Shown: positions 37,537-57,072, counted from the first letter of the stretch. The stretch: 64,000 bases of DNA from a virus (IMGVR_UViG_3300012952_003952:96001-160000); one strand, 5' to 3'. A program made the numbers and translations. The notes: a model not told the origin generated them from the letters alone.

Positions 37537-38376
37537 ATGTCGAAACATAACAAGAAAAGAAATGTTGGAATTATCTATGAACAACTCCTTTCTTCTCTTT
37601 CTAAATCTTTAGTAGAAGGAAAAAGTGGAGAAGTTAAAATAGTAAAGGGTTTAATAGATAAACATTTCCGACCAGGCACTGAGCTCTACAAAGAGTTCAG
37701 GCTGTTTCAGGCGATGGTAAAAACCAATGTACCAAGAGAGTCTTTAGCAATAAAGATCTTAGAGGAAGCAAAGAAGGCTTCAAATAATCTAGATTCTAAA
37801 AAGTTGCAAATTGAAAAATCTTTATTAATAAAAGATATAAACCACAAGATAGCTGACGGAAATTTCTACAATCAAAGAGTAAACGAGTATAGAGACTTTG
37901 CAACAGTACAAGTTTTATTAAATCTTTGGAATAAGGGAGATTTATCTTCTTTAAAAACAATTTCTGAATATGAAGCTAAAGTTCAAGAAATGCTACTTTC
38001 TGAATCTAAGCAAGCCATATTAGAAAATGAGAAAACTTCTGAAATAAACAGTTTTACGGTTAAGATAATGCTAGAAAAATTCAATAAAAAATACGATGGC
38101 ACCCTAAATGAAGTTCAGGCAAAAATTATCAAAGAGTACGTGTTTTCTCCTAAGAGCGATCTACTCACTAATTTGCTAAAAGAAGTTAAACAAGATACTC
38201 TTAAAGAAATTGCCAACTTGCCAGAAAAACATAGCAATCAAATTCTCTGCGAAAAAGTAAACAACGTTAAGGGTCAAATATCTAGCTTAAAAGAATCAGT
38301 GCATGATGATGATAATATTTCTCGATTTTTATTGCTTTCTAAACTTTGCACAGAGCTTAAGGAGGAATCACCGTGA
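37537..38376 (+). CDS. Hypothetical head-cluster protein between portal and protease (~279 aa)
   Basis: Start moved to ATG 37537, just after the portal stop (MSKHNKKRNVGIIYEQLL); helical. Confidence 0.65.
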   Translation: MSKHNKKRNVGIIYEQLLSSLSKSLVEGKSGEVKIVKGLIDKHFRPGTELYKEFRLFQAMVKTNVPRESLAIKILEEAKKASNNLDSKKLQIEKSLLIKDINHKIADGNFYNQRVNEYRDFATVQVLLNLWNKGDLSSLKTISEYEAKVQEMLLSESKQAILENEKTSEINSFTVKIMLEKFNKKYDGTLNEVQAKIIKEYVFSPKSDLLTNLLKEVKQDTLKEIANLPEKHSNQILCEKVNNVKGQISSLKESVHDDDNISRFLLLSKLCTELKEESP

Positions 38377-38984
38377 GCGATTCAAAATTACATTTATTGA
38401 CTAGTTGGACCCCGTTTGAATATACTCCAGACCAGATTCAAGAATCTAGAGACCAAAATGGCGGCAAGATTATGATGCGTGGTATTTTGCAAAAAGCTGA
38501 TACGCTTAATCAAAATGGCCGAGTATATCCTAGAGTTATACTAGATAGAGAAGTCCGAAATTATCAGAAATTCATTGCAGAAAATAGAGCGTTGGGAGAA
38601 TGTGACCACCCAGACTCTTCGGTGGTTGAACTCAAAAATGTTTCACATATTATCAGAGAAGCTCACATGGATGGAGATATCTGTTATGGTACGGTTGAAT
38701 TATTAGACACTCCTGCTGGAAAAATACTGCAAAGTTTAGTAGAGTCAGGTGTGACTTTAGGCATATCCTCACGAGGAGTGGGATCCACTAAGTCTGAAGG
38801 AGATCACCAAGTCGTCCAAGATGACTTTCAATTGATATGTTGGGATTTTGTCAGTGAGCCTTCTACCCCTGGAGCTTTTATGATGCGTGAAGGAGTGGAA
38901 GTCAGAAGGTCTGATCTAAATAAACATTTTAATAAAACAGACAGAATTGATAGAATATTTAACGATATTTTAGATTGGGAGTAA
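38373..38984 (+). CDS. gp21: Prohead core protease (T4 gp21-like)
   Basis: GILQKADTLNQNGRVYP, ALGECDHP, LGISSRGVGS, WDFVSEPSTPGA motifs; GTG start with GGAGG SD. Confidence 0.95.
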   Translation: MSDSKLHLLTSWTPFEYTPDQIQESRDQNGGKIMMRGILQKADTLNQNGRVYPRVILDREVRNYQKFIAENRALGECDHPDSSVVELKNVSHIIREAHMDGDICYGTVELLDTPAGKILQSLVESGVTLGISSRGVGSTKSEGDHQVVQDDFQLICWDFVSEPSTPGAFMMREGVEVRRSDLNKHFNKTDRIDRIFNDILDWE

Positions 38985-41434: not shown

Positions 41435-43084
41435 ATGAGTAAAAATCTTTATAATGAAGCTATCGCAGAAGCGAAACAACTGCGCGAGATGGCGGAACAA
41501 AACGCAAAAAACAAAATAATCGAAGCAGTAACCCCTAGAATTAGAGCTCTTATCGAACAGCAACTTATGGATGATGTCGAAGAAGAGTCCGACTTAGTAG
41601 TTGGCGAAGAGGGTGTTGCTGAAGACGAAGAAATAGAAATTGCAGTTGCCGACATAACCCCCCTTGCTGCCCCGGCTCCAGAAGTAGAAGCCGCTCCAAA
41701 AGTTTCAATCACAGTACAAGGTGATTTAGAAATGGCGCTTGGAGAAGAAGACAGCGAAGAAGACGAGGATTTGATTTTAAGTCAAGAATCATTCTTACGC
41801 TTAGAGAATTTTTTGCACAATGTGTCAAAAACAAAAAGCTTTTCTGATAGAGTAGTTAGTCTTGCTAAAAGATTTAGCATGCTTAGAGAAGCTATCGATG
41901 GAGTAAATCTTAACAGGTGTACTTCCATTGAAAAACAGACGGCCATTATTTTTTATGGTCGTCTATTAGAGGAAGCTATTATATTATCTGATAATTTAAT
42001 ACTTATGAAAGAGTCCATTGACAATAGACTCGAATTACAATTAACTCAACTAATAAAGGAGATGAGCAATATGTCTAGAAGACGTGACGCAGCAGCTTTC
42101 AGGAGACTCTTTGAAGAGTTAACCAAGGATGAGGGTCTTGAGGAAGTGGGCATGTACGAACAAGAAGAAGAAGAAGTCGAAGTAGAGGACGAAGAGGTCG
42201 TAGACGATGTAGAAGTAGCCGCTGAGCCAGATGTGGATGCAGCTGAAGATGCATTATTGGACCTTGGAGCAGCTCTTGGTCTCGACGTCGAAGTCGAGCA
42301 AGCAGAAGAAGAAGTGGAAGTCGACGTAGAGGAAGAAGAAGAGATCACTCTTGAGGGTGAGCACGCAGATGAAACTGATGAAATGGACGAAGTCTATGAA
42401 ATCGATGAAGCGTCTCTCCGTCGTGAACTTCTTAAAATGAGAAGACTTCGTGAGCAAGAAGAGGGAAGAGCTGCTGAGGCAGATCCTGCACTTGCCCATG
42501 GCGGTGATGATGAAGGAGACGTTATTATTGATGTCGACGAAGATGCTTTATTAAATGCATTGGCTGATGAGCTTGGTGATCCAGGCGTTCCAGAGCCACA
42601 AGTAGAAGCATTCATTCGCCGTAGACTTCGCAGAGCTAGCCGACAGCTAGCAGAATCGCAGAGACGCAACAGAAGAGTTTCTCGTCGTAGATCGGCTAGA
42701 AGAACTTCAGCTCCTGCATCTAACAAAAGAGCCGTTATGGCTGAAAGAACTGTTTCTAAATTAAAGAAGCAGCTTAACGAAATGAATCTTTTTAACGCTA
42801 AGCTTCTATTTGCTAATAAGCTCATGCAGAATCGTGGGCTTTCAACGAAGCAGCAACGCGTAGTCGTCGAGGCACTCGACAAGGCACGCACAATCAGAGA
42901 GGCTAAACTCCTTTATAAGAGTCTTAGCGCATCTCTAAATCGAGGTTCCGGTAAGACTCTATCTGAGAGTCGATCTCGATTGCTCGCATCTTCATCCAAA
43001 TCAACCCGGTCAGGCGCGCCTGCCAAAAGTGGGAATGAGGTAGATCGTTGGGCAGTACTCGCCGGACTTGCTTCCAAAAAATAA
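41435..43084 (+). CDS. Probable prohead scaffold/core protein (positional analogue of T4 gp22)
   Basis: Directly upstream of the capsid gene; very acidic core, Arg-rich stretch and C-terminal coiled coil (LNEMNLFNAKLLFANKL). Confidence 0.7.
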   Translation: MSKNLYNEAIAEAKQLREMAEQNAKNKIIEAVTPRIRALIEQQLMDDVEEESDLVVGEEGVAEDEEIEIAVADITPLAAPAPEVEAAPKVSITVQGDLEMALGEEDSEEDEDLILSQESFLRLENFLHNVSKTKSFSDRVVSLAKRFSMLREAIDGVNLNRCTSIEKQTAIIFYGRLLEEAIILSDNLILMKESIDNRLELQLTQLIKEMSNMSRRRDAAAFRRLFEELTKDEGLEEVGMYEQEEEEVEVEDEEVVDDVEVAAEPDVDAAEDALLDLGAALGLDVEVEQAEEEVEVDVEEEEEITLEGEHADETDEMDEVYEIDEASLRRELLKMRRLREQEEGRAAEADPALAHGGDDEGDVIIDVDEDALLNALADELGDPGVPEPQVEAFIRRRLRRASRQLAESQRRNRRVSRRRSARRTSAPASNKRAVMAERTVSKLKKQLNEMNLFNAKLLFANKLMQNRGLSTKQQRVVVEALDKARTIREAKLLYKSLSASLNRGSGKTLSESRSRLLASSSKSTRSGAPAKSGNEVDRWAVLAGLASKK

Positions 43085-43109
43085 TATAACAATATAAAGG
43101 AGATTTCAA

Positions 43110-45020
43110 ATGAGCAAGAAATTTACATTGGAGCAGTTAACCGAGGGTATTCGTCAACGTAACGTTGGATCGGGTAACAGTAGGTTAATTGAAAAGTGGT
43201 CTCGCACCGGTCTTCTCAGAGGACTTGAGGGCACTACTCGCGAAAACATGGCGGCACTGCTTGAAAATCAGGCATCCCAGGTTCTTCGTGAGGCTAACTC
43301 AATTTCCACCGGTGGTGGAAACTTAACTTCTTCTGGCGACCTCCGCGGTTTCCAGAACATAGCATTCCCAATCGTCCGTAGAGTTTTCGGCGGCTTGGTA
43401 GCTAATGAGCTTGTATCCGTACAGCCCATGAGCCTTCCATCAGGCCTCCTTTTCTATCTCGATTACACGTATGGAACTAATGTCGGTGGTGCAAATGCAC
43501 CTAAGGGTTCAACTTACGTCTCAGGAACTTCTATCTATAATGCACCTACAGGAAAGGGCGTTCGCTCCGGTTCTCTTGGAATCGGTGGACAGTACAACCT
43601 TGCAGGTTCTGGTTATTCCAGAGTCCACAAAGTTGCTACTAGTATCACTCTCCTCGCTTCTGGCGCGTTCATGGGAGACTCTACGTTCTCCGCAGGTGGT
43701 TCAGGCGCAAGACAAACTCAGCGTATGGTTGCTACTGGTTCTGACGGCAAGCTTCTACAGTTTGACGAGCAGATCTGTAGATTAATTGAAGATAACCCCA
43801 ACGCTGCTGGCGCTGGTGTTTTCAAAGCATACGTTGTTGATTTTGCTTCAGGCAAATTCGCAGATGCCGACACTAGTATGGTCAAAGACTTCGCTCTTAC
43901 ACCAGACGCAGGTGCTAACCCCACAATCCTCTCAAACACTCTGAAGTCAGAAGACGTTCAGGTCAGTGGTGATAACGTCCTTAACGTACGTCGTCTTAAC
44001 CAGTTAGGTAAGTGGAACAATGGTCAGTTCACCGCAGATCCTCTCGTAAAAGCTGGCGATTCTAACGCTGCGCTTCTATTGATTGTTTCTGGTGGTGGTG
44101 GCACTACTGATGCAACCGCTGAGCAGACTTATGACGTTGGTTATGTTCTTAGCCCAAGCTTGAATGCTGGATCTGATGGTGATACCCTTACGATTCCAAC
44201 TTTCGAGTCTAACTTTGCAACTACACCTTCTCCAGAGATCCCAGAGATCGATATCAAGGTAGAATCTATTGCGGTCACCGCGGTAACTCGTAAGCTTCGT
44301 GCTCGCTGGTCACCAGAACTCGCACAGGACCTAAACGCTTACCACAGCCTTGACGCTGAGGTTGAGCTTACTCAGATCCTTTCCGAGCAGATCGCACTTG
44401 AGCTTGACAGAGAAATTCTTAACGACCTTCTCACCCAAGCCAAGACCAACTTCTACTGGTCACGTGCACCTGGTAAGTTCATGAACAAGAGAAGTGGTAC
44501 TCTTATCACTCCCGGAGGCGCTGGTACTATTGGACCAAGCTTCACCGGTACTGTTCGCGAATGGTATGAGACGCTCGTTGAGACTATTATTGATGTTGCT
44601 AACGAAATTCACAGACTCACACTCCGTGGTTCAGCTAACTTCATCGTAGTTTCTCCAGACATCGCAACCATCCTCGAAGCATCCGTCCTCTACCGCCCAA
44701 GCTACAGCTTAGATGGTGATGGACAGGTCGGTACTCCAATGAGTATCGGAGCTGAGAAGGTTGGTACTCTAAGCAACCGCTTCACAGTCTACAAAGATCC
44801 TTACTTCCCACGGAACAAGGTACTTGTCGGATTCAAGGGTGGTAGCTACTTAGAGACTGGTTATGTCTATGCTCCATACGTACCGCTGATCGTTACGCCT
44901 ACTATCTTCGCTCCTGAGGACTTCACCCCAAGAAAGGGTGTTATGACTCGCTACGGCAAGAAGATGGTTCGTTCCGACTTCTACGGTACCGTTACTGTCG
45001 CAGACATGAACGTTATCTAA
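43110..45020 (+). CDS. gp23: Major capsid protein, copy 1 (T4 gp23-like, HK97 fold; 636 aa)
   Basis: QPMSLPSGLLFYLDY, TRKLRARWSPELAQDL, EQIALELDREI, YAPYVPL, KGVMTRYG motifs; strong AAGGAG SD; strongly biased codons. Confidence 0.95.
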   Translation: MSKKFTLEQLTEGIRQRNVGSGNSRLIEKWSRTGLLRGLEGTTRENMAALLENQASQVLREANSISTGGGNLTSSGDLRGFQNIAFPIVRRVFGGLVANELVSVQPMSLPSGLLFYLDYTYGTNVGGANAPKGSTYVSGTSIYNAPTGKGVRSGSLGIGGQYNLAGSGYSRVHKVATSITLLASGAFMGDSTFSAGGSGARQTQRMVATGSDGKLLQFDEQICRLIEDNPNAAGAGVFKAYVVDFASGKFADADTSMVKDFALTPDAGANPTILSNTLKSEDVQVSGDNVLNVRRLNQLGKWNNGQFTADPLVKAGDSNAALLLIVSGGGGTTDATAEQTYDVGYVLSPSLNAGSDGDTLTIPTFESNFATTPSPEIPEIDIKVESIAVTAVTRKLRARWSPELAQDLNAYHSLDAEVELTQILSEQIALELDREILNDLLTQAKTNFYWSRAPGKFMNKRSGTLITPGGAGTIGPSFTGTVREWYETLVETIIDVANEIHRLTLRGSANFIVVSPDIATILEASVLYRPSYSLDGDGQVGTPMSIGAEKVGTLSNRFTVYKDPYFPRNKVLVGFKGGSYLETGYVYAPYVPLIVTPTIFAPEDFTPRKGVMTRYGKKMVRSDFYGTVTVADMNVI

Positions 45021-45034
45021 ACCCTAACAGTGAT

Positions 45035-45062
45035 GGGGCGGTGCTCTAACGAGCACCGCTCT
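45035..45062 (+). promoter_or_regulatory. Stable RNA hairpin between the two capsid genes (no long U-tract)
   Basis: GGGGCGGTGCTC-TAAC-GAGCACCGCTCT: 9 Watson-Crick pairs extendable to 12 with G-U; followed by TGATC and the GGAG SD at 45068. Confidence 0.6.
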
Positions 45063-45081
45063 TGATCGGAGAAAATATAAT

Positions 45082-46965
45082 ATGTCTAAAAAATTTACAT
45101 TAGAACAACTAACTGAAGGAATTCGCCAACGTAATGTTGGTAAAGGTAATTCTAAGTTAGTTGAAAAGTGGTCTCGTACTGGACTTCTTCGAGGTCTTGA
45201 AGGTACCACTCGCGAGAACATGGCTTCTCTTCTAGAAAACCAGGCGTCTCAAGTTCTCCGCGAAGCTAACTCAATCTCTACCGGTGGAGGAAACTTAACT
45301 TCTTCTGGTGATTTAAGAGGCTTTCAAAACATTGCGTTTCCAATCGTCCGTAGAGTCTTTGGTGGATTAGTTGCTAACGAACTAGTTTCAGTTCAGCCTA
45401 TGAGCCTTCCTTCTGGTCTGCTCTTCTATCTAGACTATACTTACGGCACAAACGTTGGCGGTAATGATGATGCTGGTGATGAAGCCACTTATCCTTCCGG
45501 AAGCTCTATTTATAACGCCCCAACTGGAAAGGGCATTCGCTCTGGCTCGTTAGGCATAGGTGGACAGTACAACCTTGCAGGTTCTGGTTACTCTAGAGTT
45601 CGCCAAGTTGCCAATACGATTACGATCATGGCTTCCGGCGCATACAACGGAGGATCAACTTTTACTGCTGCTAAGAGATTGGCTGCTACCGGTTCAGATG
45701 GTAAACTTCTTCAGTTTGATCCACAGATCTGTAGGTTGATTGAAGATAATCCCAACGCTGCTGGCGCTGGTGTTTTCACCGCAATGTTCATTGACTTAAA
45801 CTCTACGCAGTTTAGCAATGGTGATCTTAGTATGGTTAAGGATTTCTCTCTTATTCCTTCTGGAACAGGTGGTCTTAACTTCAATGAGATAGCTCAAACG
45901 CTGAAAGATGAAGATATTCAGATTTCTGGAAAGAGAGTTGTTAACGTACGTCGTCTTAATCAATTAGGAAAGTGGGATGGAAGTAACTTCACGCATGATC
46001 CTTTAGTTAAGGCTGGCGATTCTAACGCAGCTATATTGATGATCGTTTCTGGTACTCGAATCATGGCAGATGGTGCAGACATAAACTATGTCTTAGCTCC
46101 AGATTTAAATGCTGGATCTGATGGTGACACTCTTACCATTCCAACTTTTGAATCTGACTTCGCGGCTTCTCCATCTCCTGAAATTCCAGAGATTGATATT
46201 AAAGTTGAGTCAATCGCAGTTACTGCAGTTACTAGAAAGCTTCGTGCTCGCTGGTCACCAGAACTTGCTCAAGACTTGAATGCATATCACTCTTTAGATG
46301 CAGAAGTAGAGCTTACACAGATCCTATCTGAGCAGATCGCTCTTGAACTTGACCGTGAGATCCTTAATGATCTACTTACCCAAGCTAAGACTAACTTCTA
46401 TTGGTCAAGAGCTCCCGGTAAGTTCATGAACAAGAGAAGCGGAACCCTCATTACTCCTGGTGGTGCTGGAACTATTGGACCAAGCTTCACAGGAACAGTC
46501 AGAGAGTGGTACGAGACCCTTGTCGAGACCATTATCGATGTTGCTAATGAGATCCACCGCCTGACTCTTAGAGGTTCAGCTAACTTCATCGTAGTGTCTC
46601 CAGACATTGCAACTATCCTTGAAGCCTCAGTTCTTTATCGTCCAAGCTACAGCTTAGACGGTGATGGACAAGTCGGCAGCCCGATGAGCATTGGCGCTGA
46701 GAACGTAGGTACTCTTTCAAACCGTTTCACGGTTTATAAAGACCCATACTTCCCGCGCAACAAGGTTCTCGTCGGATTCAAGGGCGGAAGTTATCTTGAG
46801 ACTGGATATGTATACGCACCTTATGTACCACTTATTGTCACTCCAACAATCTTCGCACCAGAAGACTTCACACCTCGTAAGGGCGTGATGACTCGATATG
46901 GTAAGAAGATGGTTCGTTCCGACTTCTATGGTACAGTTACTGTCGCAGACATGAACGTTATTTAA
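45082..46965 (+). CDS. gp23: Major capsid protein, copy 2 (T4 gp23-like; 627 aa)
   Basis: 123 of the first 127 aa and 262 of the last 264 aa are identical to copy 1; divergent middle; intact frame with its own SD. Confidence 0.93.
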   Translation: MSKKFTLEQLTEGIRQRNVGKGNSKLVEKWSRTGLLRGLEGTTRENMASLLENQASQVLREANSISTGGGNLTSSGDLRGFQNIAFPIVRRVFGGLVANELVSVQPMSLPSGLLFYLDYTYGTNVGGNDDAGDEATYPSGSSIYNAPTGKGIRSGSLGIGGQYNLAGSGYSRVRQVANTITIMASGAYNGGSTFTAAKRLAATGSDGKLLQFDPQICRLIEDNPNAAGAGVFTAMFIDLNSTQFSNGDLSMVKDFSLIPSGTGGLNFNEIAQTLKDEDIQISGKRVVNVRRLNQLGKWDGSNFTHDPLVKAGDSNAAILMIVSGTRIMADGADINYVLAPDLNAGSDGDTLTIPTFESDFAASPSPEIPEIDIKVESIAVTAVTRKLRARWSPELAQDLNAYHSLDAEVELTQILSEQIALELDREILNDLLTQAKTNFYWSRAPGKFMNKRSGTLITPGGAGTIGPSFTGTVREWYETLVETIIDVANEIHRLTLRGSANFIVVSPDIATILEASVLYRPSYSLDGDGQVGSPMSIGAENVGTLSNRFTVYKDPYFPRNKVLVGFKGGSYLETGYVYAPYVPLIVTPTIFAPEDFTPRKGVMTRYGKKMVRSDFYGTVTVADMNVI

Positions 46966-46984: not shown

Positions 46985-47020
46985 TGAGGCGGCGTTTTTG
47001 ACGCCGCCTCATTTGTTTTA
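46985..47020 (+). terminator. Rho-independent terminator after the capsid pair
   Basis: TGAGGCGGCGT-TTTTG-ACGCCGCCTCA 11-bp stem followed by TTTGTTTTA. Confidence 0.88.
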
Positions 47021-47069
47021 TTAAACGTTTAATAAAGCAAGTTATAATATAATCAAATTGGAGTTTATC

Positions 47070-47354
47070 ATGGATGATACTACTAAAAACACAAGAGCTC
47101 GCTCTAGAAAACCCGCAGTTAAAAAAGAAGTTTCAAACTCTGCAGACACTAAAGCGCTTGAAAAAGCAGTGGCGTCTCTTACTAACAGATGCGACGCTTT
47201 AGAAGCAAGGTGCGCTAAATTAGAGAACGCTAAAACACCAAAAGCTTCTGGAAGCAACGATATTTCTGAAGCTAGATGGGAGAGCCTTAAGCTATTTTTA
47301 GAAAAGAAGTTTGGCAGAGATTGGTTAAAGCGCACCGGTATGTGGGAACTTTAA
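47070..47354 (+). CDS. Small hypothetical protein (94 aa)
   Basis: Start moved to ATG 47070, with GGAG at 47060-63; short coiled coil. Confidence 0.55.
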   Translation: MDDTTKNTRARSRKPAVKKEVSNSADTKALEKAVASLTNRCDALEARCAKLENAKTPKASGSNDISEARWESLKLFLEKKFGRDWLKRTGMWEL

Positions 47355-50704: not shown

Positions 50705-53700
50705 ATGGCTGAACAGACCTTCCGTTCTCCAGGGTTTTTTGAACAAGAGATAGATCTTTCGCAGAGAGAGAAGGCTCCTAATGGTACCCCTGCAGGTATT
50801 ATTGGAACCGCTGAAAAAGGACCGGCCTTCGTGCCAGTTACCGTAGGTTCTTTTGCAGATTTCGAAACGAGATTTGGAACACTTGACTCAAACCGTTATG
50901 GTCCCTATGCAGTAAGAGAATATTTAAAAAATAAAGATGCAGTAACTTATCTTCGCGTTTTAGGCGCGGGATCTAATGATACCAGTGCAGAGATAAGCAA
51001 CACAGAAAATTATGGATATGTATCCAAAGCAGGATTCATAGTTTCCGGATCGGCCATCGGCGGATTCAAGGGAGACGTTACCCGAAATGACTTTAGAGAT
51101 AGGGGATACGTGCAATTCCTTTGCGCAAGACATTATCTTTCAGCCTCTGAAGCGAATGTTGGATATCCTATTTTCGATGATAATGATTCATTCCCAGATT
51201 TGAACAAAGCCGCGACTCGTAAAGACTCAACAAACGTAGTTAACTTAGTACGCGGAATGATTTTGCCAACAACTGGCTCTAGAGTCTTAGTTTGTGGATG
51301 GGATCATGAGCTTAAAGCAACTAGCGTCCCAAGAGCAGACGTCGCGTCACGAAATGACAACAAGACTTCTGCTGCCTACAACACCTTTAAGATAATAATT
51401 TCATCTTCTGCGGGTACAGGCTTTGCCAACGATGACAATTTACCGGGCTTGAGAATCTATAGTGCTTCTCTAGATCCAAATAACCAAAATTACATTGGAA
51501 AAGTTTTAAATACTGATCCATGGAAATTCCAAGAGAAGCAACACCTTCTTTGGGCTGATTTCCCCGTAGAGCACGAAGTCGCTCCAGTTTCAAATGTCAG
51601 CGGTTCGATTGGAATCAGTTCCGGATCTGCTGCTACTGCTACTGGAACAAACGCTGTCGATGAGCCGTGGAGAACTTCTTTTGGAAGATTTGACACTAGA
51701 TACCAAACACCACAAACGCCTGCGATTATATCACAGCCTTTCGGTAACCTCGAGTATGACTTGTTCCACTTTGAGTCTTTGTCTGATGGTGCATATGCAA
51801 ACTCTAAACTGAAAGTGTCTATTGCCAATGTCCGGGCCTCTACTGATGAATCTAACCCATACGGAACATTCGAAGTTCAGCTTAGAAAATTCGATGACAC
51901 CGACATGGCTAGAGAGATCGTAGAGCAGTATCCAGAATGTACTCTAGATCCAAATGATGATCGCTTCATCGGCCGCCAAATTGGAGATAAGAAAGTTTAT
52001 TTCGACTTTGATGCAGACGATCCAGAAGAGCGCAGGCTCGTAATGGGCGGAAAATATCCAAATGTATCTGCGAACATTAGAGTAGTAATAAATGACGCAG
52101 TCTACAGAGGCGATGTACCAAAAGAATCTGTTCCATTCGGTTTCCGTGGAATTCCAGTCTTAAAGACCACTGATAGTTTTACAGATCTTTCTGATAAGCT
52201 TATCACTGGCTGGGAAGGCGATGATATTGGATCTTCTGGAACTAGAACAGCTCTAGTCACCGGTGATCATGGTAGTGGTTCTTGGGGACACGGTCTTACT
52301 GGATCTATCCTTCCACCACTTCCCTACAGGTTCAAGTGCACTAGAGGACTAGTAAAAGCTTCTCCAAGCTTCTCCGGAGAGCCTGGCAAGAATGAAAGAG
52401 CAGACTCAAGACTATATTGGGGCTCAATGCCCACAAGAGTACCACTGACAGGATCAGTTACTTCCGCCTGCTTAGACGCAAACGTTGGAAGTACGGTAAA
52501 CGAACTCGTTAGAGGTTATACTACCTTCCAGGGTATCGTGAAACTAGATAACTTAGTTACTGGCTCCGGTGCAGATGCTTTCAATAACAATAAGTTCACG
52601 CTAGCAAGAGTGGCACTTTACAATACTGAAACTAACCTAAGCAAAATCACGGGTTCTGCTGCAGAGCATATGTTAGATGCCGCTTATATAAGAAATGGAA
52701 TCTATAGTGCCACTGATTATACCATCAGCGATGGTGTCCGGGCTGGAAGGTTGACGTTGGCGACTCTAGTTAACTCTAGTTCTATTAAGTTCAATCGATT
52801 CCAAGATTATGCTAAGTTTACTATGCCATTCTTCGGTGGATTCGACGGGTTAAACGTTCTAGACAAAGATAGTGCTTTAATGAACGACCGTTCAGCTTCT
52901 ACTGATCCTAAGGGATTAGCTGGAGACGATCCTCCCGGAGGAGGCCTCGGACTGGCAAACACTGAAAATGGTGGAATGTCCGGAAGAGATAGACAAAACA
53001 ACGCAGTTTTCTCTTACAGAAAAGCTGTTGAAATAATGACTGATCCAATGATTGTTAACACTAACATCTTGGCCGTTCCAGGCATTAGAGATCCATACAT
53101 CACAGACTTAGCTTCAGATAGAACAAGAGATTATTCTATGGCTATATACCTCATGGATATTCAACACTACGACGAAGATGAAAACAGACTCTATAATTCT
53201 GATTCTGCAAAGAGAGATGTTAGAGAAACTGCTGAGCAGTTCGAAAGCCGTAGAGTTAATAACAACTATGTCGCTACATACTTCCCAGATGTTTATATTG
53301 ATGATCCAATCAACAATAGATCTGTACAAGTTCCATCTTCCGTAGTTGCTCTTGGAGCTTTGGGTTACAACGATACTGTTTCTTATCCTTGGTTCGCACC
53401 TGCTGGATTCAACAGAGGCGCGCTAGATAATGTTAGAAACACAGTTGTAAGACTAACGGCTGGAGACCGAGACGAGTTGTATGACGCTAGAATTAATCCA
53501 ATTGCGAACTTCCCAAGTGGCGGATTCGTTATCTTTGGACAAAAGACACTACAACTCGCGAAAAGCGCTCTAGACAGAGTAAACGTTCGCAGAATGTTGC
53601 TGGAAGTCAAGAGACTCGTTGTACAAGTCGCAGATCGACTGCTCTTCGAGCCGAATACACCAGCCACAAGAGCTAAGTTTACTTCGCAAGTAGCACCAAT

Positions 53701-53887
53701 CCTTGCTTTAGTGCAATCTCAAGCAGGTATAGAAAAATTCGCGGTTGTTATGGATGACACCAATAATACAGCGGAAGATATTGAATCAAATAGACTAAAT
53801 GGTAGAATCGTCGTCGTACCTACGAGATCTATCGAATTCATCGCTATCGACTTTATCATCACAAATAGTGGCGTGTTGTTCTTGTAG
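50705..53887 (+). CDS. gp18: Tail sheath protein 1 (gp18-like; 1060 aa)
   Basis: FRSPGFFEQEIDLS N-terminus; C-terminal WFAPAGFNRG, INPIANFP, GQKTLQ, SALDRVNVRRML, FEPN, PTRSIEFIAIDF. Confidence 0.93.
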   Translation: MAEQTFRSPGFFEQEIDLSQREKAPNGTPAGIIGTAEKGPAFVPVTVGSFADFETRFGTLDSNRYGPYAVREYLKNKDAVTYLRVLGAGSNDTSAEISNTENYGYVSKAGFIVSGSAIGGFKGDVTRNDFRDRGYVQFLCARHYLSASEANVGYPIFDDNDSFPDLNKAATRKDSTNVVNLVRGMILPTTGSRVLVCGWDHELKATSVPRADVASRNDNKTSAAYNTFKIIISSSAGTGFANDDNLPGLRIYSASLDPNNQNYIGKVLNTDPWKFQEKQHLLWADFPVEHEVAPVSNVSGSIGISSGSAATATGTNAVDEPWRTSFGRFDTRYQTPQTPAIISQPFGNLEYDLFHFESLSDGAYANSKLKVSIANVRASTDESNPYGTFEVQLRKFDDTDMAREIVEQYPECTLDPNDDRFIGRQIGDKKVYFDFDADDPEERRLVMGGKYPNVSANIRVVINDAVYRGDVPKESVPFGFRGIPVLKTTDSFTDLSDKLITGWEGDDIGSSGTRTALVTGDHGSGSWGHGLTGSILPPLPYRFKCTRGLVKASPSFSGEPGKNERADSRLYWGSMPTRVPLTGSVTSACLDANVGSTVNELVRGYTTFQGIVKLDNLVTGSGADAFNNNKFTLARVALYNTETNLSKITGSAAEHMLDAAYIRNGIYSATDYTISDGVRAGRLTLATLVNSSSIKFNRFQDYAKFTMPFFGGFDGLNVLDKDSALMNDRSASTDPKGLAGDDPPGGGLGLANTENGGMSGRDRQNNAVFSYRKAVEIMTDPMIVNTNILAVPGIRDPYITDLASDRTRDYSMAIYLMDIQHYDEDENRLYNSDSAKRDVRETAEQFESRRVNNNYVATYFPDVYIDDPINNRSVQVPSSVVALGALGYNDTVSYPWFAPAGFNRGALDNVRNTVVRLTAGDRDELYDARINPIANFPSGGFVIFGQKTLQLAKSALDRVNVRRMLLEVKRLVVQVADRLLFEPNTPATRAKFTSQVAPILALVQSQAGIEKFAVVMDDTNNTAEDIESNRLNGRIVVVPTRSIEFIAIDFIITNSGVLFL

Positions 53888-53928: not shown

Positions 53929-56900
53929 ATGGCTGAATTAACTTTTAAAAGTCCAGGGGTATCAACTAGGGAGATAGATCTTTCTGGTCCCACTTCGGTT
54001 GCACCCCAGGGAACCCCAGCAGGAATAATCGCTACAGCGAACCAAGGACCTGCCTTCGTTCCTGTAACTGTGGCGACTTATCAAGACTTCGTTGCTACTT
54101 TTGGACAGTCAAACGGTGAAATGTTTGGTCCGCTAGCAATGAATGAGAGGATGAGAAACGCAAAAGCGGGAACCTATTTAAGGGTTCTTGGTGTAGGAGA
54201 CGGTAAAAAGAGGCTTACTTCTGATTCTACCGACGCAGCTGGAGCCAACATCTATGCGGGAGCAGTTAAAAATGCTGGCTTCATTGTTGGCCAAAAGCAG
54301 GTTAACGACAAAGGTAGCTTAGCAACCAACCCGTTCGCATATGATTACGGCTTGTCAGGCGCAACCTACATGTTGGGATGTTTGATGTCAGAATCTAACG
54401 GTTCTTCAATCTTCTCAGATGCGGGATTACAGCATAAGACGAAAGCTCATAAAAACGCTGGATCAAAAGCGATCCCAATTTTGCGAGCTGTAGTGATGGT
54501 AGCATCTGGAGTTACTATTGGTCTATCTGGAAACCTTGATGGAAATCTCAACACGGTAGTGACAGCTTCTACTGCTGGATCTACTGGAATATTCTCTGCA
54601 TCTGCAGATGGAGGATACAGTTGGGGAGAAATCGATGTGCAATCGGCAAACCATTATAACTTTATAATGTTGTTGAATGGCCATAAGAGTACAGCCCAGT
54701 ATCCCAACACGATTACCGCTTCCATGTCACCATGGAGTCCATCCTATTTTACTAACGTGTTCAACACAGACCCAACGAAGATCCAAGATGCTGGTTACTG
54801 TATGTATGCCCACTATGACATCGCTCCTACCATGGCGGTTGTTACAGGCTCTGGTATCGTTTCGACGACTCACTGGTCTGGATCATACTCAGCTCAAAAT
54901 ACTGAGCCGGCTATATTCGCTTTCACGTCTTCTATGGGCCCTAACGCCGGAAGCACCACGAAGCCAAACTATGAAAACTTTAGTGACAGGTTCCGTACAG
55001 CGAAAAGCCCTTGGGTTGTATCTCAACAGTACGGTGGCCAAAACAGAGACTTGTTTAAACTGCATTGTCTAGATGATGGCGCTTATCCAAATACACTCAC
55101 AAAAATCTCGATTAGTAACTACAAGAAAGCAGAAAAAGATACTGATTATGGTACTTTCGACCTGATGGTAAGAGCGTTTGGAGATACGGACAGCGAGCCT
55201 GAAATTCTTGAATCTTATATGGGAGTAGATCTCAACCCAGGATCTGACAACTATATCGCTCGTCGAATTGGCGATATTCATCGATATTTTGACTTCGACC
55301 ATGCTGCTGCTAGCCAAAAACTTGTAGTGGAGGGAACACACCCGAATATGAGCAAGTACGTTAGAGTTCAAATGCACGGAGAGCTAGAAGCTGGAAACAT
55401 TTCAACCACAGCTCTTCCAGTTGGATACAGAGGTCCTCACCACTTAGTTACTTCTGGTTCGAGTATTTTCAATGGAGGGTATCCCAACCATCCGACCGTT
55501 ACCGGATCTAATGCAGATAGCGGTTTTCATCACGTGAAAGCTAAAAACTCGATTATCGGTGAAACTGCTATTGCTGCAATGGTAGAACCTCCAATTCCGT
55601 ACAGACTCTGCATCTCTAACAATAAAGGAGACAAGAGGACTGCTAACTCAAGCTACTATTGGGGAGTTCAATTTACTAAACAGGACAAACTTTACAACAA
55701 TGATAGTAACTCAAGCAGGATTCTTGATCCCTCTTTAGCTTCTTACACTAAATACTATCCAGTGTTTGCCACTGGCCAGCGCTCTGTTTCGGTTGGAGAC
55801 AACGCTGGAACAGTAGACAGCTCAGGTACTGTTCTAGATTCAGACAAGTTCAATAATAACCTTTTCACTCTAGAAAAAGTACAAGTTCATACCAAGTCGG
55901 CATCTGAAGATAAGGTTGATTCTAAAGAGTGGGCTTTCGCAGTTTATCGAAGAAACGGCGTCTTGTCTTCTTCGCTGATGAAATCTGACGGAACATATAC
56001 CCAGGGAAGATTCTTAAATGTATCTAAAGACTTTGGAGATATTGCTTCTCGTAAGTACATGAAATTCACATTCTTCATGCAGGGAGGATTCGATGGAGTC
56101 AACATCTTTAACAAAGATAAAGCACAGCTCCTAAATGCTGCCGCAATGAGAGAGATGGATGATGAAAGCCAAGGATTTTCATCCGGTCCAACTGTTGCAA
56201 CTTATAGAAAAGCAATCGACGTTATGTCCGAAAAATCAGACTCAGACATTATGCTCTTAGCGATTCCAGGTATTCGTGAAACGAACATTACTGACCACGC
56301 GATAGATCAGACTGAAGCTAGATTCGATGCCATGTATATCATGGATATCGAAGAGAGAGATACCCTGAACAACAAGGTTACTGGATCTGTAGAGGTTGTT
56401 GGAGTAAACAACACTATTACAGACTTCAAATCTAGAAATCTAGATAGTTCTTTCGCGGCGGCCTATTTCCCTGACACATATATTACAGATCCACACACCA
56501 ACACTATCGTTCGCTGTCCACCATCTGTATCAGTCATTGGAGCTATGTCTCTAAACGATAAGGTTGCATTCCCATGGTATGCACCAGCTGGTTTCACTCG
56601 AGGAGCTCTGTCTTCAACTCTCTACTCTCACGTTAAACTAAGTAGAGCTAACTTAGACACCATTTATGATGGAGACGTTAATCCGATCACAGCATTCCCA
56701 ACTTCAGATGGAGTTGTAGTCTTTGGTCAGAAAACTCTGCTTCAAGCAGCTAGCGCACTCGATAGAGTTAATGTTAGAAGGCTTTTGATTGACATTCGTA
56801 GAAAAGTCAGAAAAATTGCCGATACGTTCCTATTTGAACCTAACCGAGCAGATACTTTAGCTAGATTCTCAGCTTCAGTTAGTCCAGTACTCACCAGAAT

Positions 56901-57072
56901 TCAACAGCAACAAGGGCTTGATAAGTTCAAGGTGCTGATTGATACCACCACCACTACGCAAGCGGATGTAGAAAATAATACCATTAGAGGAAAAATATTC
57001 TTACAGCCAACCCGCAGTGTTGAATTCATCTCATTAGATTTCGTTGTTACAAATAATGGAACAGAGATTTAA
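53929..57072 (+). CDS. gp18: Tail sheath protein 2 (gp18-like; 1047 aa)
   Basis: FKSPGVSTREIDLS; WYAPAGFTRG, VNPITAFP, GQKTLL, SALDRVNVRRLL, FEPN, PTRSVEFISLDF. Confidence 0.93.
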   Translation: MAELTFKSPGVSTREIDLSGPTSVAPQGTPAGIIATANQGPAFVPVTVATYQDFVATFGQSNGEMFGPLAMNERMRNAKAGTYLRVLGVGDGKKRLTSDSTDAAGANIYAGAVKNAGFIVGQKQVNDKGSLATNPFAYDYGLSGATYMLGCLMSESNGSSIFSDAGLQHKTKAHKNAGSKAIPILRAVVMVASGVTIGLSGNLDGNLNTVVTASTAGSTGIFSASADGGYSWGEIDVQSANHYNFIMLLNGHKSTAQYPNTITASMSPWSPSYFTNVFNTDPTKIQDAGYCMYAHYDIAPTMAVVTGSGIVSTTHWSGSYSAQNTEPAIFAFTSSMGPNAGSTTKPNYENFSDRFRTAKSPWVVSQQYGGQNRDLFKLHCLDDGAYPNTLTKISISNYKKAEKDTDYGTFDLMVRAFGDTDSEPEILESYMGVDLNPGSDNYIARRIGDIHRYFDFDHAAASQKLVVEGTHPNMSKYVRVQMHGELEAGNISTTALPVGYRGPHHLVTSGSSIFNGGYPNHPTVTGSNADSGFHHVKAKNSIIGETAIAAMVEPPIPYRLCISNNKGDKRTANSSYYWGVQFTKQDKLYNNDSNSSRILDPSLASYTKYYPVFATGQRSVSVGDNAGTVDSSGTVLDSDKFNNNLFTLEKVQVHTKSASEDKVDSKEWAFAVYRRNGVLSSSLMKSDGTYTQGRFLNVSKDFGDIASRKYMKFTFFMQGGFDGVNIFNKDKAQLLNAAAMREMDDESQGFSSGPTVATYRKAIDVMSEKSDSDIMLLAIPGIRETNITDHAIDQTEARFDAMYIMDIEERDTLNNKVTGSVEVVGVNNTITDFKSRNLDSSFAAAYFPDTYITDPHTNTIVRCPPSVSVIGAMSLNDKVAFPWYAPAGFTRGALSSTLYSHVKLSRANLDTIYDGDVNPITAFPTSDGVVVFGQKTLLQAASALDRVNVRRLLIDIRRKVRKIADTFLFEPNRADTLARFSASVSPVLTRIQQQQGLDKFKVLIDTTTTTQADVENNTIRGKIFLQPTRSVEFISLDFVVTNNGTEI

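What the first reader, a model, noticed from the sequence alone, without database searches (positions are those of the whole stretch)
43110..46965. Two tandem major capsid genes with near-identical shell cores but different surface insertion domains
Seen in sequence: two intact gp23-like genes (636 and 627 aa). Residues 1-127 differ at 4 positions (S21K, R25K, I27V, A49S) and the last 264 residues at 2 (T/S and K/N in GTPMSIGAEKVG). The intervening ~240 aa has many substitutions and indels in patches between conserved blocks. Established: in T4 gp23 the region between the QPM...F and SRQLKA-equivalent motifs includes the outward-facing insertion domain, and the T4 vertex paralogue gp24 is far more diverged from gp23 than this pair. 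Both copies keep the protease site, and no other gp24-like gene is in the window. Inference: a two-subunit capsid system. It could give mosaic shells displaying two surfaces (binding of decoration proteins or host surfaces, evasion of capsid-sensing defences), switchable capsid types, or an early hexon/penton specialisation via the two A-domain-region substitutions.
Basis: partly seen in the sequence, partly recalled or inferred. Interest (0 to 1): 0.85.

Follow-up and report, generated by a model that had tools for sequence, protein, structure and literature searches.

The report
Two-subunit capsid shell, marine jumbo phage
A clade of uncultured marine giant T4-like phages keeps two adjacent coat-protein genes whose shell-forming parts stay almost identical as proteins while their DNA and their outward-facing domains have drifted far apart. 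This suggests that one capsid is built from two subunits with different surfaces, although no virion protein data exist yet.

Summary

- **Not an assembly artefact.** At least five related lineages carry the same pair in independent JGI, ENA, IMG/VR and Logan assemblies. One is a complete 293-kb genome. Contigs from another study bridge the junction.
- **An old duplication.** Synonymous sites of the two cores are saturated, yet only 6 of 385 core residues differ. The four N-terminal differences lie in the propeptide, which is probably cleaved off.
- **Concerted cores.** In the mature core, all six informative replacement sites are shared by the two copies within a genome rather than by orthologues. 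At two window sites this happened on different codon backgrounds.
- **Paralogue-specific surface domain.** The roughly 250-aa insertion domain is hypervariable and evolves separately in each copy.
- **Expression signals.** Copy 1 has the strongest codon bias in the window. Copy 2 has a weaker ribosome-binding site and sheath-like codon bias, and is co-transcribed past a conserved hairpin with no T tract.

Best reading: both proteins assemble into one lattice. Whether copy 2 mixes into hexamers (favoured) or forms the vertices like T4 gp24 is unresolved.

This scan earlier noted tandem capsid pairs on unrelated DNA, but not in this family.

The parts
41435..43084 (+). Putative scaffold (gp22-position) gene, 549 aa, directly upstream of copy 1
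   Evidence: Assigned by position between the gp21-type protease (38373..38984, PHROG 207) and the capsid genes. It has no family match. A 552-569 aa gene holds this slot in all relatives. One RNA-library contig covers its 3' part together with the copy 1 start.
43097..43102 (+). Ribosome-binding site of copy 1: AAGGAG, 7 nt before the ATG
   Evidence: Read from the sequence. AAAGGAG is conserved upstream of copy 1 and of the single-copy gene in relatives.
43110..45020 (+). Copy 1 (c1): T4 gp23-type major capsid protein, 636 aa, the presumed majority subunit
   Evidence: Pfam Gp23 E 9.8e-76. AlphaFold2 model: pLDDT 85.4, pTM 0.84. Best structural match is T4 gp23 5vf3_A: Z 22.3, 298 residues aligned, rmsd 3.5. 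It has the highest GC3 (0.443) and NNC/NNY fraction (0.68) of all 37 ORFs in the window.
43110..43292 (+). Copy 1 propeptide, residues 1-61, ending in LRE|A
   Evidence: E61 is invariant in alignment A1. T4 gp23 is cut after E65 by gp21 (PMC9958956). A gp21-type protease gene lies at 38373..38984. Cleavage itself is inferred, not shown. The four N-terminal c1/c2 differences (21, 25, 27, 49) all lie here.
43491..44234 (+). Copy 1 variable region, residues 128-375: E-loop linkers plus an enlarged insertion (I) domain
   Evidence: 75-77 substitutions and 15 gap columns against copy 2. About 240 model residues here do not align to T4 gp23, whose I domain has only 60 residues (PMC9958956). The low-confidence loops at 190-205, 270-290 and 330-340 coincide with the indel and hypervariable patches. 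No Pfam or Atlas family matches. A sister strain is 11-13% diverged here, against 2% in the flanks.
44733..44759 (+). A-domain loop and hairpin of copy 1 holding the only two mature-core differences (T542, K550)
   Evidence: The HMM alignment to T4 gp23 places T542 near S405, K550 near F413, and the T4 bypass site K420 near R557. Alignment confidence is moderate (bypass sites from PMC9546572). K550 is N or Q in 3 of 5 copy-2 lineages, and K in every copy 1 and most single-copy relatives.
45031..45068 (+). Conserved GC-rich intergenic hairpin without a T tract, between copy 1 and copy 2
   Evidence: Folding energy is -24.2 kcal/mol, z -4.7. Equivalent hairpins in three other lineages reach -25.9 to -37.4 with compensating changes. 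The stem motif GGCGG..CCGCC matches the terminator after the capsid gene, but the T run is gone, and the terminator scan does not call it. RNA-library contigs run through it.
45068..45071 (+). Ribosome-binding site of copy 2: GGAG, 10 nt before the ATG, weaker than that of copy 1
   Evidence: Read from the sequence. The same short GGAG, or AAGGAA, occurs in the four other lineages.
45082..46965 (+). Copy 2 (c2): second gp23-type capsid protein, 627 aa, with the same shell core and a distinct I-domain type
   Evidence: Pfam Gp23 E 1.1e-75. It is intact in every lineage seen. Core dN/dS against orthologues is 0.014-0.03. GC3 is 0.349 and NNC/NNY 0.50, the same as the tail sheath genes. Fifteen positions are fixed in all copy-2 proteins and absent from copy-1-type proteins, all within residues 174-343. 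Copy-2 I domains form one clade with support 94/98.
45463..46179 (+). Copy 2 variable region, residues 128-366 (I domain and linkers)
   Evidence: It is shorter than in copy 1 by deletions of 7 and 5 residues, and has insertions of 1 and 2 residues.
46985..47021 (+). Intrinsic terminator after copy 2
   Evidence: A 12-pair stem followed by TTTGTTTTAT; -26.8 kcal/mol, z -6.6. It is conserved after copy 2, and after the single gene of L089. Contig depth in the RNA libraries falls beyond it, from 19-21 to 6.9 and 1.75.

Best explanation
The two genes encode two functional subunits of one capsid shell.

**Origin.** One old tandem duplication of the gp23-type gene copied the gene together with its terminator hairpin. 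It happened in the ancestor of a small clade of marine jumbo T4-like phages whose relatives build hexamers and pentamers from a single protein.

**Expression.** Both copies are transcribed on one message with the scaffold gene. The hairpin after copy 1 has lost its T run, so transcription reads through to copy 2.

**Processing.** Both copies carry the same kind of propeptide and the same LRE|A site, so both should enter the prohead on the scaffold and be cut by the gp21-type protease.

**The mature proteins.** After cleavage they have the same N-arm, P domain and A domain, apart from two residues in an A-domain loop. They differ in the large insertion domain, which by analogy with T4 sits on the outside, on top of the neighbouring subunit of the same capsomer.

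**Why co-assembly.** Selection has kept the cores matched. Replacements in the mature core appear in both copies of a genome, partly by short gene conversion and partly by parallel substitution. This is what is expected if the two proteins contact each other and share partners in one lattice.

**Amounts and placement.** Copy 1 is the majority subunit. Copy 2 is made in smaller but substantial amounts. I favour copy 2 sharing hexamer positions with copy 1, either in mixed capsomers or in copy-2 capsomers among the hexons. That gives a shell with two surface types.

**Shown:** the genes, their conservation, their evolutionary pattern, their fold, and contigs in RNA libraries that join them. **Inferred:** cleavage, incorporation, stoichiometry and placement.

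I put co-assembly of any kind at about 0.75, and the mixed-position version at 0.45.
For: - **The tandem is real and conserved.** It occurs in the window lineage, a sister strain (P0274/P0275), the L085/L092 type, the P0007 type and the P0008 type. 77 of 80 IMG/VR relatives and the close relatives L089, L095 and P0011 have one gene.
- **One duplication.** Copy-2 I domains form a clade (94/98) nested among copy 1 and L089.
- **Old and constrained.** 209 of 379 identical-residue core codons differ, against 216 expected at saturation (P=0.20). Every other pair tested is below saturation, including single-copy relatives with 51-60 core replacements. The window pair has only 6 core replacements.
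- **Concerted core, window against L085.** Informative replacement sites: 0 orthologue-type, 5 genome-type, 0 cross. Synonymous third positions: 39, 21, 23. My own Fisher calculation from these counts gives about 0.008.
- **Concerted core, four genomes.** Mature-core sites 453, 466, 551, 571, 573 and 633 are all genome-type and none is orthologue-type. The I domain is the reverse, for example 63/0/0.
- **Parallel change rather than conversion at two sites.** Site 24 is Ser in both window copies through AGT and TCT. Site 466 changes on ATC/GTC in copy 1 and ATT/GTT in copy 2.
- **No conversion tract in the window cores.** The longest identical run is 32 nt. L085 does show tracts of 56 and 53 nt, p 0.0005-0.014.
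- **Expression.** RNA-library contigs of a sister strain tile both genes and bridge the junction. Depths are similar, 25.4/18.8 for the copy 1 middle and 19.1/15.0 for the copy 2 middle, and fall after the terminator.
- **Copy 2 is not a low-copy gene by codon use.** Its NNC/NNY fraction is 0.50, like the sheath genes (0.51 and 0.475) and well above portal (0.31) and protease (0.26).
Against: - There are no protein data. Incorporation of copy 2 into virions is not shown.
- Contig depth is a poor measure of expression, and RNA libraries can contain DNA (tool caveats).
- The concerted pattern rests on about 10 distinct sites in four related genomes. Some of them (551, 571, 573 in the L090 type) lie in identical nucleotide runs, so plain gene conversion could explain them without selection for matching.
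- Copy 2 sits exactly where T4 has gene 24. It has a weaker ribosome-binding site, lower codon bias than copy 1, and a recurrent change in the A-domain loop. All of this also fits a vertex protein.
- No advantage of an irregular two-surface shell has been demonstrated.
- I could not obtain model coordinates, so I did not test whether the variable residues are exposed.
Confidence: 0.45

Rival explanations
1. Copy 2 is a newly evolved vertex protein, an independent and much younger analogue of T4 gp24. Copy 1 builds the hexamers and copy 2 builds the eleven pentamers. Its shorter I-domain loops and its A-domain loop change would adapt it to five-fold geometry or to a vertex-specific decoration.
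For: - Copy 2 occupies the slot directly after the major capsid gene, as gene 24 does in T4. The order portal, protease, scaffold, capsid is the same (T4 order from my own knowledge).
- T4 gp24 is thought to derive from gp23 by duplication (PMC9958956).
- Copy 2 has a weaker ribosome-binding site and lower codon bias than copy 1.
- Its synonymous sites have moved towards the genome's average composition. GC3 falls as low as 0.278 in the L090 type.
- K550 becomes N or Q in 3 of 5 copy-2 lineages and never in copy 1. The site lies a few residues from the position aligned to the T4 bypass mutation K420R (PMC9546572).
- Copy 2 has fixed I-domain deletions of 7 and 5 residues.
Against: - Single-copy relatives, including a 93%-complete 318-kb genome, have no second Gp23-family gene. 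The ancestral protein therefore already made pentamers.
- No core position is fixed differently in copy 2.
- Copy 2 keeps the full 61-residue propeptide, whereas T4 gp24 loses only 10 residues (PMC9958956).
- The whole core, A domain included, evolves in concert with copy 1.
- RNA-library contig depth is about equal for the two genes.
- Codon bias equals that of the sheath genes rather than low-copy head genes.
Confidence: 0.3
2. Copy 2 mainly serves variation or protection rather than regular shell building. It could be a reservoir of I-domain sequence that recombines into copy 1 or is exchanged between phages. Alternatively it could be a decoy or alternative target for host defences that sense capsid protein.
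For: - The I domains are hypervariable between strains: 11-13% and 7.7% divergence, against 1.6-3.4% in the flanks.
- The copy 1 I domain of the window and of the P0007 lineage differ at 21 of 250 positions. Their copy 2 I domains differ at 63 of 240, and P0007's copy 2 is nearer to the L085 type. This points to horizontal exchange of the copy 2 I domain.
- Identical runs of 32 and 28 nt inside the variable region are longer than permutation expects, p 0.004.
- Short conversion tracts exist in L085.
Against: - I-domain sites are overwhelmingly paralogue-specific (63/0/0, 31/2/0, 12/4/3), so exchange between copy 1 and copy 2 is rare.
- Copy 2 keeps a complete, strongly constrained shell core, propeptide and cleavage site. 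A mere sequence reservoir would not need them.
- No defence system or sensing target was tested.
Confidence: 0.1
3. The two genes give alternative capsids. A given infection, or a given host, uses mostly one or the other, producing two particle types.
For: Two complete and otherwise equivalent capsid genes would permit it. The intergenic hairpin could in principle modulate read-through.
Against: - No promoter-like site lies between the genes.
- Single contigs in RNA libraries join the end of copy 1 to the start of copy 2, and both genes show similar depth in the same samples.
- Independent particle types would not require the two cores to change together.
Confidence: 0.07
4. The pair is an artefact or has no function: an assembly chimera of two strains, or a neutral duplicate on its way to loss.
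For: The source is a metagenome assembly. One close relative, L089, has a single gene. One weak joint in an RNA-library contig (44815 to 46804, only 20 nt on one side) would correspond to a copy 1/copy 2 fusion.
Against: - The same arrangement with its own intergenic sequence appears in at least five lineages, many samples and three assembly pipelines. One is a complete genome with terminal repeats.
- Junction-spanning contigs exist.
- Both genes are intact, with core dN/dS of 0.014-0.05, after synonymous saturation.
Confidence: 0.02

Closest known systems
Bacteriophage T4 gp23 (hexamer) and gp24 (vertex pentamer) pair
   Same: - Two paralogous HK97-fold capsid genes derived by duplication, the second directly downstream of the first.
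- The same head module of portal, gp21-type protease, scaffold and capsid.
- Both proteins carry an I domain inserted in the E loop (PMC9958956).
   Different: - T4 gp23 and gp24 share about 20% identity, and gp24 has only a 10-residue propeptide (PMC9958956). Here overall identity is 85% and the mature core differs at 2 residues. Both copies keep the full propeptide.
- All fixed differences lie in the I domain.
- The duplication is independent and confined to a small clade, whose relatives have neither a second copy nor a gp24.
- Placement of copy 2 at vertices is not shown.
Two-component Family 2B encapsulin shell of Streptomyces lydicus (PMC12407261; PDB 9bje appears)
   Same: Two adjacent paralogous HK97-fold shell proteins. 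For the encapsulin, co-assembly into mixed shells of variable composition with irregular tiling has been demonstrated. This is the model I favour for copy 1 and copy 2.
   Different: The encapsulin is a small cellular nanocompartment, not a virus. It has no propeptide, protease or scaffold pathway. Co-assembly of the phage pair is inferred, not shown. I did not compare how the two encapsulin proteins differ from each other.
Single-gene gp23-type capsids of T4-superfamily phages without gp24, such as Sinorhizobium phage PhiM9 (PMC4621102)
   Same: The wider family of the window's phage behaves like these. It has one gp23-type protein and no gp24-like gene, so that protein must fill both six-fold and five-fold positions (PhiM9 statement in PMC4621102).
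   Different: The window's clade added a second full-length copy. Its I domain of about 240 residues is far larger than the minimal I domains of PhiM9/PhiM12 or the 60-residue domain of T4 (PMC9958956, PMC4621102).

Membership tests
T4 gp23-type major capsid protein (Pfam PF07068) | Sequence match to the family model above its curated cut-off | tested here: met
   Both copies score 256 bits against a cut-off of 24.4, E~1e-75. PHROG 138, major head protein, matches at E~1e-70. The profile also matches T4 gp23 chains in the PDB at E 2e-34.
T4 gp23-type major capsid protein (Pfam PF07068) | HK97 fold with an extra domain inserted in the E loop | tested here: met
   The AlphaFold2 model of copy 1 (pLDDT 85.4) aligns best to T4 gp23 5vf3_A: Z 22.3, 298 residues. 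It also aligns to HK97 gp5 at Z about 16. About 240 residues between model positions 125 and 375 are left unaligned. Copy 2 was not modelled separately; it is 69% identical in that region.
T4 gp23-type major capsid protein (Pfam PF07068) | N-terminal propeptide removed by a gp21-type prohead protease at an (L/I)-x-E site | tested here: inconclusive
   LRE|A at residues 59-62 is present in both copies, with E61 invariant. A gp21-type protease gene lies 4 kb upstream. Cleavage itself cannot be tested with sequence tools.
T4 gp24-type vertex protein (considered for copy 2) | A gp23 paralogue encoded next to the major capsid gene | tested here: met
   Copy 2 starts 61 nt after the stop of copy 1.
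T4 gp24-type vertex protein (considered for copy 2) | A diverged core adapted to five-fold positions, and a short propeptide | tested here: not met
   The mature core differs from copy 1 at 2 residues. No core position is fixed differently across copy-2 lineages. The full 61-residue propeptide is retained. In T4, identity is about 20% and the propeptide has 10 residues (PMC9958956).
T4 gp24-type vertex protein (considered for copy 2) | Forms the pentamers at eleven vertices, at about 55 copies per particle | not testable with these tools
   This needs virion proteomics or cryo-EM. The indirect signals conflict. The weaker ribosome-binding site and lower codon bias than copy 1 point one way. 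The similar RNA-library contig depth and sheath-like codon bias point the other way.
Two-component HK97-fold shell (as in Family 2B encapsulins) | Two adjacent paralogous shell-protein genes expressed together | tested here: met
   The genes are in tandem with no promoter-like site between them, and contigs in RNA libraries bridge them.
Two-component HK97-fold shell (as in Family 2B encapsulins) | Physical co-assembly of both proteins in one shell | not testable with these tools
   Supported only indirectly, by concerted evolution of the mature core. I did not send a complex prediction. Two mature chains exceed the size limit, and the contacting cores are identical, so a pass would not separate the hypotheses.

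The most novel reading that the evidence does not exclude
This clade would be the first virus known to build its HK97-type hexamer lattice from two interchangeable subunits. The two share one shell core, kept matched by selection while their DNA has diverged to saturation. They display two different large surface domains, and the second domain type is exchanged horizontally between phage lineages. The capsid surface would then be a mosaic that can change without touching the load-bearing lattice.
Probability: 0.35. Interest if true: 0.8.

Novelty: new variant of a known kind. Interest (0 to 1): 0.66.

Why it matters
Tailed phages are generally held to build their shell from one major capsid protein. 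T4's gp23/gp24 pair is the classic exception, and it is so old that the steps leading to it are erased.

This pair is a much younger, independent duplication, in which the division of labour can still be read. The load-bearing core is frozen and co-evolving, and only the outward I domain has differentiated.

If copy 2 is a vertex protein, this is a living intermediate in the origin of dedicated pentamer proteins. If it mixes into hexamers, it is a natural two-component viral shell, an assembly mode so far shown only for an encapsulin.

Either result bears on three questions:
- how large capsids tolerate heterogeneity;
- how phages vary their surface, for decoration, adhesion or escape from capsid-sensing defences, without risking assembly;
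- how tandem repeats survive in highly recombinogenic genomes.

The contrast between protein-level concerted evolution and synonymous saturation is also a useful general signature for finding co-assembling paralogues in metagenomes.

Tried and rejected
- **Megablast against phage records.** The 3.9-kb region found nothing. Isolates are at most 47% identical in protein.
- **First AlphaFold2 run.** With a shallow alignment of close relatives it gave pLDDT 53, and the Foldseek search with that model found nothing meaningful. A diverse alignment fixed this.
- **Identity of the I domain.** No Pfam family matched, and the Atlas gave no convincing relative.
- **Recent gene conversion as the cause of core identity.** Rejected for the window: the core nucleotide tree shows no within-genome grouping, the longest identical run is 32 nt, and the run test is not significant in the cores.
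- **Active avoidance of nucleotide identity beyond saturation.** Not supported: 209 differing codons observed against 216 expected.
- **Positive selection on the I domain as a whole.** Not seen: pairwise dN/dS is 0.06-0.20. Site-level tests were not run.
- **T4 late promoter motif TATAAATA.** Not enriched, and absent upstream of either gene.
- **Xanthomonas phage Xoo-sp13.** Its second tblastn match is not a tandem capsid gene next to the first.
It occurs only 2-4 times per capsid protein, so there is no enrichment and no clear c1/c2 contrast.
- **Complex prediction.** Not sent, because of the size limit and because the contacting cores are identical.
- **Mapping variable residues to exposed or buried positions.** Not possible, because model coordinates are not returned.
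- **L089.** Whether this single-copy relative lost copy 2 or branched off before the duplication stayed unresolved.

Full report
**1. The observation**

The window holds two intact ORFs on the + strand: 43110..45020 (636 aa, 'c1') and 45082..46965 (627 aa, 'c2'). Both match Pfam Gp23 (PF07068) at E~1e-75 and PHROG 138, major head protein. BLASTP gives 544/639 identities.

- Residues 1-127 differ at S21K, R25K, I27V and A49S.
- The last 264 residues differ at T542S and K550N.
- The segment between has 75-77 substitutions and 15 gap columns, in patches between conserved blocks.

**2. Context**

The window is bases 96001-160000 of a 241,978-bp IMG/VR virus record that CheckV rates 57% complete.

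The neighbourhood is a T4-type head and tail module. In order:
- large terminase (33878);
- portal (35526);
- gp21-type protease (38373);
- several small genes;
- a 549-aa gene in the scaffold position (41435);
- c1 and c2;
- a 98-aa coiled-coil ORF;
- a gp13-like adaptor (47448);
- two sheath genes and the tube gene.

The nearest cultured phages are only 36-47% identical in the capsid protein: Flavobacterium phage immuto, Microcystis phage Mel-JY01 and uncultured huge phages. Metagenomes hold thousands of homologues, many on contigs of 250-320 kb. This is an abundant, uncultured, mostly marine group of jumbo T4-like phages.

**3. The tandem is real**

Of the 80 best IMG/VR relatives, only the three closest carry the pair. 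The other 77, all at or below 73% identity, have one gene. Look-ups by exact protein found the pair in further lineages:
- the L085/L086/L088 type, seen on 13 contigs from JGI and ENA samples;
- L092;
- the P0007 lineage (635 + 629 aa);
- the P0008 lineage;
- a sister strain (P0274/P0275).

One relative is a 293,409-bp genome with direct terminal repeats, rated 100% complete. It contains exactly the two tandem Gp23-family genes and no other. A 93%-complete 318-kb single-copy relative has one.

In the run that probably gave the window, a Logan contig covers 44960-45588 without a mismatch. In two RNA libraries of a different study, contigs of 774 and 791 nt from a strain about 98.5% identical cover 44787-45577. 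That stretch runs from the end of c1 through the spacer into the first 500 nt of c2. An assembly chimera is excluded as far as sequence data can exclude it.

**4. Age and constraint**

The protein-identical flanks are far from identical in DNA, at 75-84% identity.

- Among the 379 core codons that encode the same residue in both copies, 209 differ.
- Shuffling each gene's own codons among positions of the same amino acid gives 216 (95% range 201-232; P=0.20). Synonymous sites are therefore saturated.
- Every other pair tested is below saturation. This includes c1 against single-copy relatives that differ from it at 51-60 core residues.
- c1 and c2 differ at only 6 of 385 core residues.

The I-domain tree places all c2 proteins in one clade (94/98), nested among c1 and the single-copy L089. 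The core nucleotide tree groups c1 with c1 and c2 with c2, never the two copies of one genome. This means one duplication, older than the split of the tandem lineages, followed by very strong purifying selection.

c2 has also moved in composition. c1 has the highest GC3 (0.443) and the highest share of C-ending two-fold pyrimidine codons (0.68) of the 37 ORFs in the window. c2 has 0.349 and 0.50, the same as the two sheath genes, and well above portal (0.31) and protease (0.26). Relaxed codon selection in c2 explains part of its faster synonymous change.

**5. The core evolves in concert, the I domain does not**

For the window and L085 genomes, I counted sites at which two of the four sequences share one state and the other two share another.

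| Sites | Orthologue pairing | Within-genome pairing | Cross pairing |
|---|---|---|---|
| Core replacement sites | 0 | 5 | 0 |
| Synonymous third positions, same codons | 39 | 21 | 23 |
| Synonymous third positions, N-terminal core only | 18 | 4 | 5 |

My Fisher calculation from the first two rows gives about 0.008.

With four tandem genomes at protein level:
- the mature core has six such sites (453, 466, 551, 571, 573, 633), all within-genome, and none of the orthologue type;
- the three orthologue-type sites (21, 25, 37) are all in the propeptide;
- the I domain is the reverse, for example 63/0/0 and 31/2/0.

Two window sites show that this is not simply gene conversion:
- residue 24 is Ser in both copies through AGT in c1 and TCT in c2;
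- residue 466 changes between Ile and Val on ATC/GTC in c1 and ATT/GTT in c2.

A run test finds no conversion tract in the window cores, where the longest identical run is 32 nt. It does find tracts in L085 (56 and 53 nt, p 0.0005-0.014), and the L090 type has long identical runs around its shared sites.

The cores are therefore kept matched by a mix of short conversions and parallel substitutions. This is the pattern expected for proteins that must fit each other and the same partners. The sample is small, about ten distinct sites in four related genomes, and that is the main statistical caveat.

**6. What differs in the mature proteins**

E61 in LRE|A is invariant in the family. It corresponds to the site where T4 gp21 removes the first 65 residues of gp23 (PMC9958956). 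The four N-terminal differences all lie before it.

If cleavage occurs as in T4, the mature proteins differ only in residues 128-375 and at T542S and K550N.

A model built with a diverse alignment (pLDDT 85.4, pTM 0.84) matches T4 gp23 best: Z 22.3, 298 residues. It matches gp24 less well, at Z 17.0. About 240 residues of the variable region are left unaligned, whereas the T4 I domain has 60 residues (PMC9958956).

The low-confidence loops (190-205, 270-290, 330-340) coincide with the indels and the most variable patches. No known family matches this domain.

Fifteen positions are fixed in all c2 proteins and absent from c1-type proteins, all between residues 174 and 343. No core position is fixed differently.

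K550 is N or Q in three of five c2 lineages, and K in every c1. The profile alignment to T4 places it about seven residues from the position aligned to K420. K420 is one of the three gp24-bypass sites (N381S, A387T, K420R) in the A domain (PMC9546572). The alignment is only moderately confident there.

**7. The I domains vary fast and are exchanged**

Pairwise dN/dS is 0.06-0.20 in the middle region, against 0.014-0.05 in the core.

The sister strain in the RNA libraries is 1.6-3.4% diverged in the flanks, but 11-13% in the c1 middle and 7.7% in the c2 middle.

The c1 I domain of the window and of the P0007 lineage differ at 21 of 250 positions. Their c2 I domains differ at 63 of 240, and P0007's c2 is closer to the L085 type. 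The c2 I domain has therefore either been swapped between lineages or evolves much faster.

**8. Expression signals**

- c1 has AAGGAG 7 nt before its ATG. c2 has GGAG 10 nt before its ATG. This contrast holds in all lineages.
- A stable hairpin lies between the genes: -24 to -37 kcal/mol, z -4.2 to -6.1. It is conserved with compensating changes.
- Its stem resembles the terminator that follows the capsid gene, but the T run is missing, and the scan does not call it a terminator. The duplication evidently copied the gene with its terminator, which then lost its T tract.
- A canonical terminator follows c2.
- No sigma-70-like site and no T4 late motif lies between the genes.
- In the RNA libraries, the contigs for the c1 middle have depths of 25.4 and 18.8, and those for the c2 middle 19.1 and 15.0. 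Depth falls to 6.9 and 1.75 after the terminator.

The fall argues for RNA rather than carried-over DNA. Contig depth is only a rough guide, however, and the tool warns against ranking genes by it.

**9. Interpretation**

Both genes are functional capsid subunits, and the evidence favours their assembly into one lattice. I put that at about 0.75. Where c2 sits is open.

*Arguments for a vertex protein:*
- its position in the gene order;
- the weaker ribosome-binding site and lower codon bias;
- the shorter loops;
- the recurrent K550 change.

*Arguments against a vertex protein:*
- the ancestral single protein already made pentamers;
- c2 has no fixed core change;
- it keeps the long propeptide;
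- its whole core, including the A domain, tracks c1;
- its RNA and codon signals suggest hundreds of copies rather than 55.

I therefore favour shared hexamer positions (0.45) over a vertex-only role (0.30). The remaining options carry about 0.2: an I-domain reservoir or decoy, alternative particle types, or an artefact.

Mixed shells of two HK97-fold paralogues are established for a Family 2B encapsulin (PMC12407261). I found no report of them for a virus in my limited literature searches.

**10. Comparison and novelty**

The pair works like T4 gp23/gp24 in being a duplicated gp23-type gene in the same slot. It fails two defining features of gp24, the diverged core and the short propeptide, so c2 should not be filed as a gp24 homologue.

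It is best described as a new variant of the known two-capsid-protein theme: younger, independent, and differentiated only in the surface domain.

Earlier notes of this scan describe tandem capsid pairs on unrelated DNA, namely GTA-like elements of Clostridia and an uncultured phage group. None is in this family, and none reports the contrast between a concerted core and a saturated DNA sequence.

**11. Limits**

- There are no protein data.
- Expression rests on contigs only.
- The concerted-evolution test rests on few sites.
- DNA was available for only some lineages.
- The status of the single-copy relative L089, as a loss or a pre-duplication branch, is unresolved.

Noticed in passing
window 50705-53887 and 53929-57072: Two tandem tail sheath paralogues (1060 and 1047 aa) are 34% identical. 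Their N- and C-terminal parts are conserved and their middles divergent. Both are also present in the 293-kb tandem-capsid relative and in the 318-kb single-capsid relative, so this doubling is family-wide and older than the capsid duplication.
   Followed up: partly
window 45031-45068, compared with 46985-47021: The hairpin between the two capsid genes shares its GGCGG..CCGCC stem motif with the terminator after copy 2, and with the terminator after the single gene of L089. It lacks the T run. It looks like a duplicated terminator turned into a read-through element or an RNA-stabilising element.
   Followed up: partly
window 47058-47354: A small coiled-coil ORF (98 aa) follows the capsid gene or genes in every relative examined, at 88-101 aa, behind a conserved ATATAAT-like motif. 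It has no significant family match. It could be a decoration or cement protein.
   Followed up: no
proteins P0273/P0007 compared with window 43491-44234 and 45463-46179: The copy 1 I domains of the window and the P0007 lineage are 92% identical. Their copy 2 I domains are only 74% identical, and P0007's copy 2 is nearer to the L085 type. This suggests horizontal exchange of the copy 2 surface domain.
   Followed up: partly
window 43586-44312 and 45579-46256, in runs X2 and X3: A sister strain is 1.6-3.4% diverged in the capsid cores, but 11-13% (with indels) in the copy 1 I domain and 7.7% in the copy 2 I domain. The surface domains are hypervariable at strain level.
   Followed up: partly
window 44815 joined to 46804, in run X2: One low-depth contig in an RNA library joins copy 1 to the equivalent point of copy 2, skipping 1988 nt. 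A recombinational fusion of the two genes would look like this. Only 20 nt lie on one side, so it may be noise or a relative.
   Followed up: no
G002:C1:103208-103336 (locus L110): In the 318-kb single-capsid relative there is a weak match (24.9 bits) to the N-terminal part of the Gp23 model, on a 118-aa frame with one TGA, far from the head module. It may be a propeptide-like leader on another protein.
   Followed up: no
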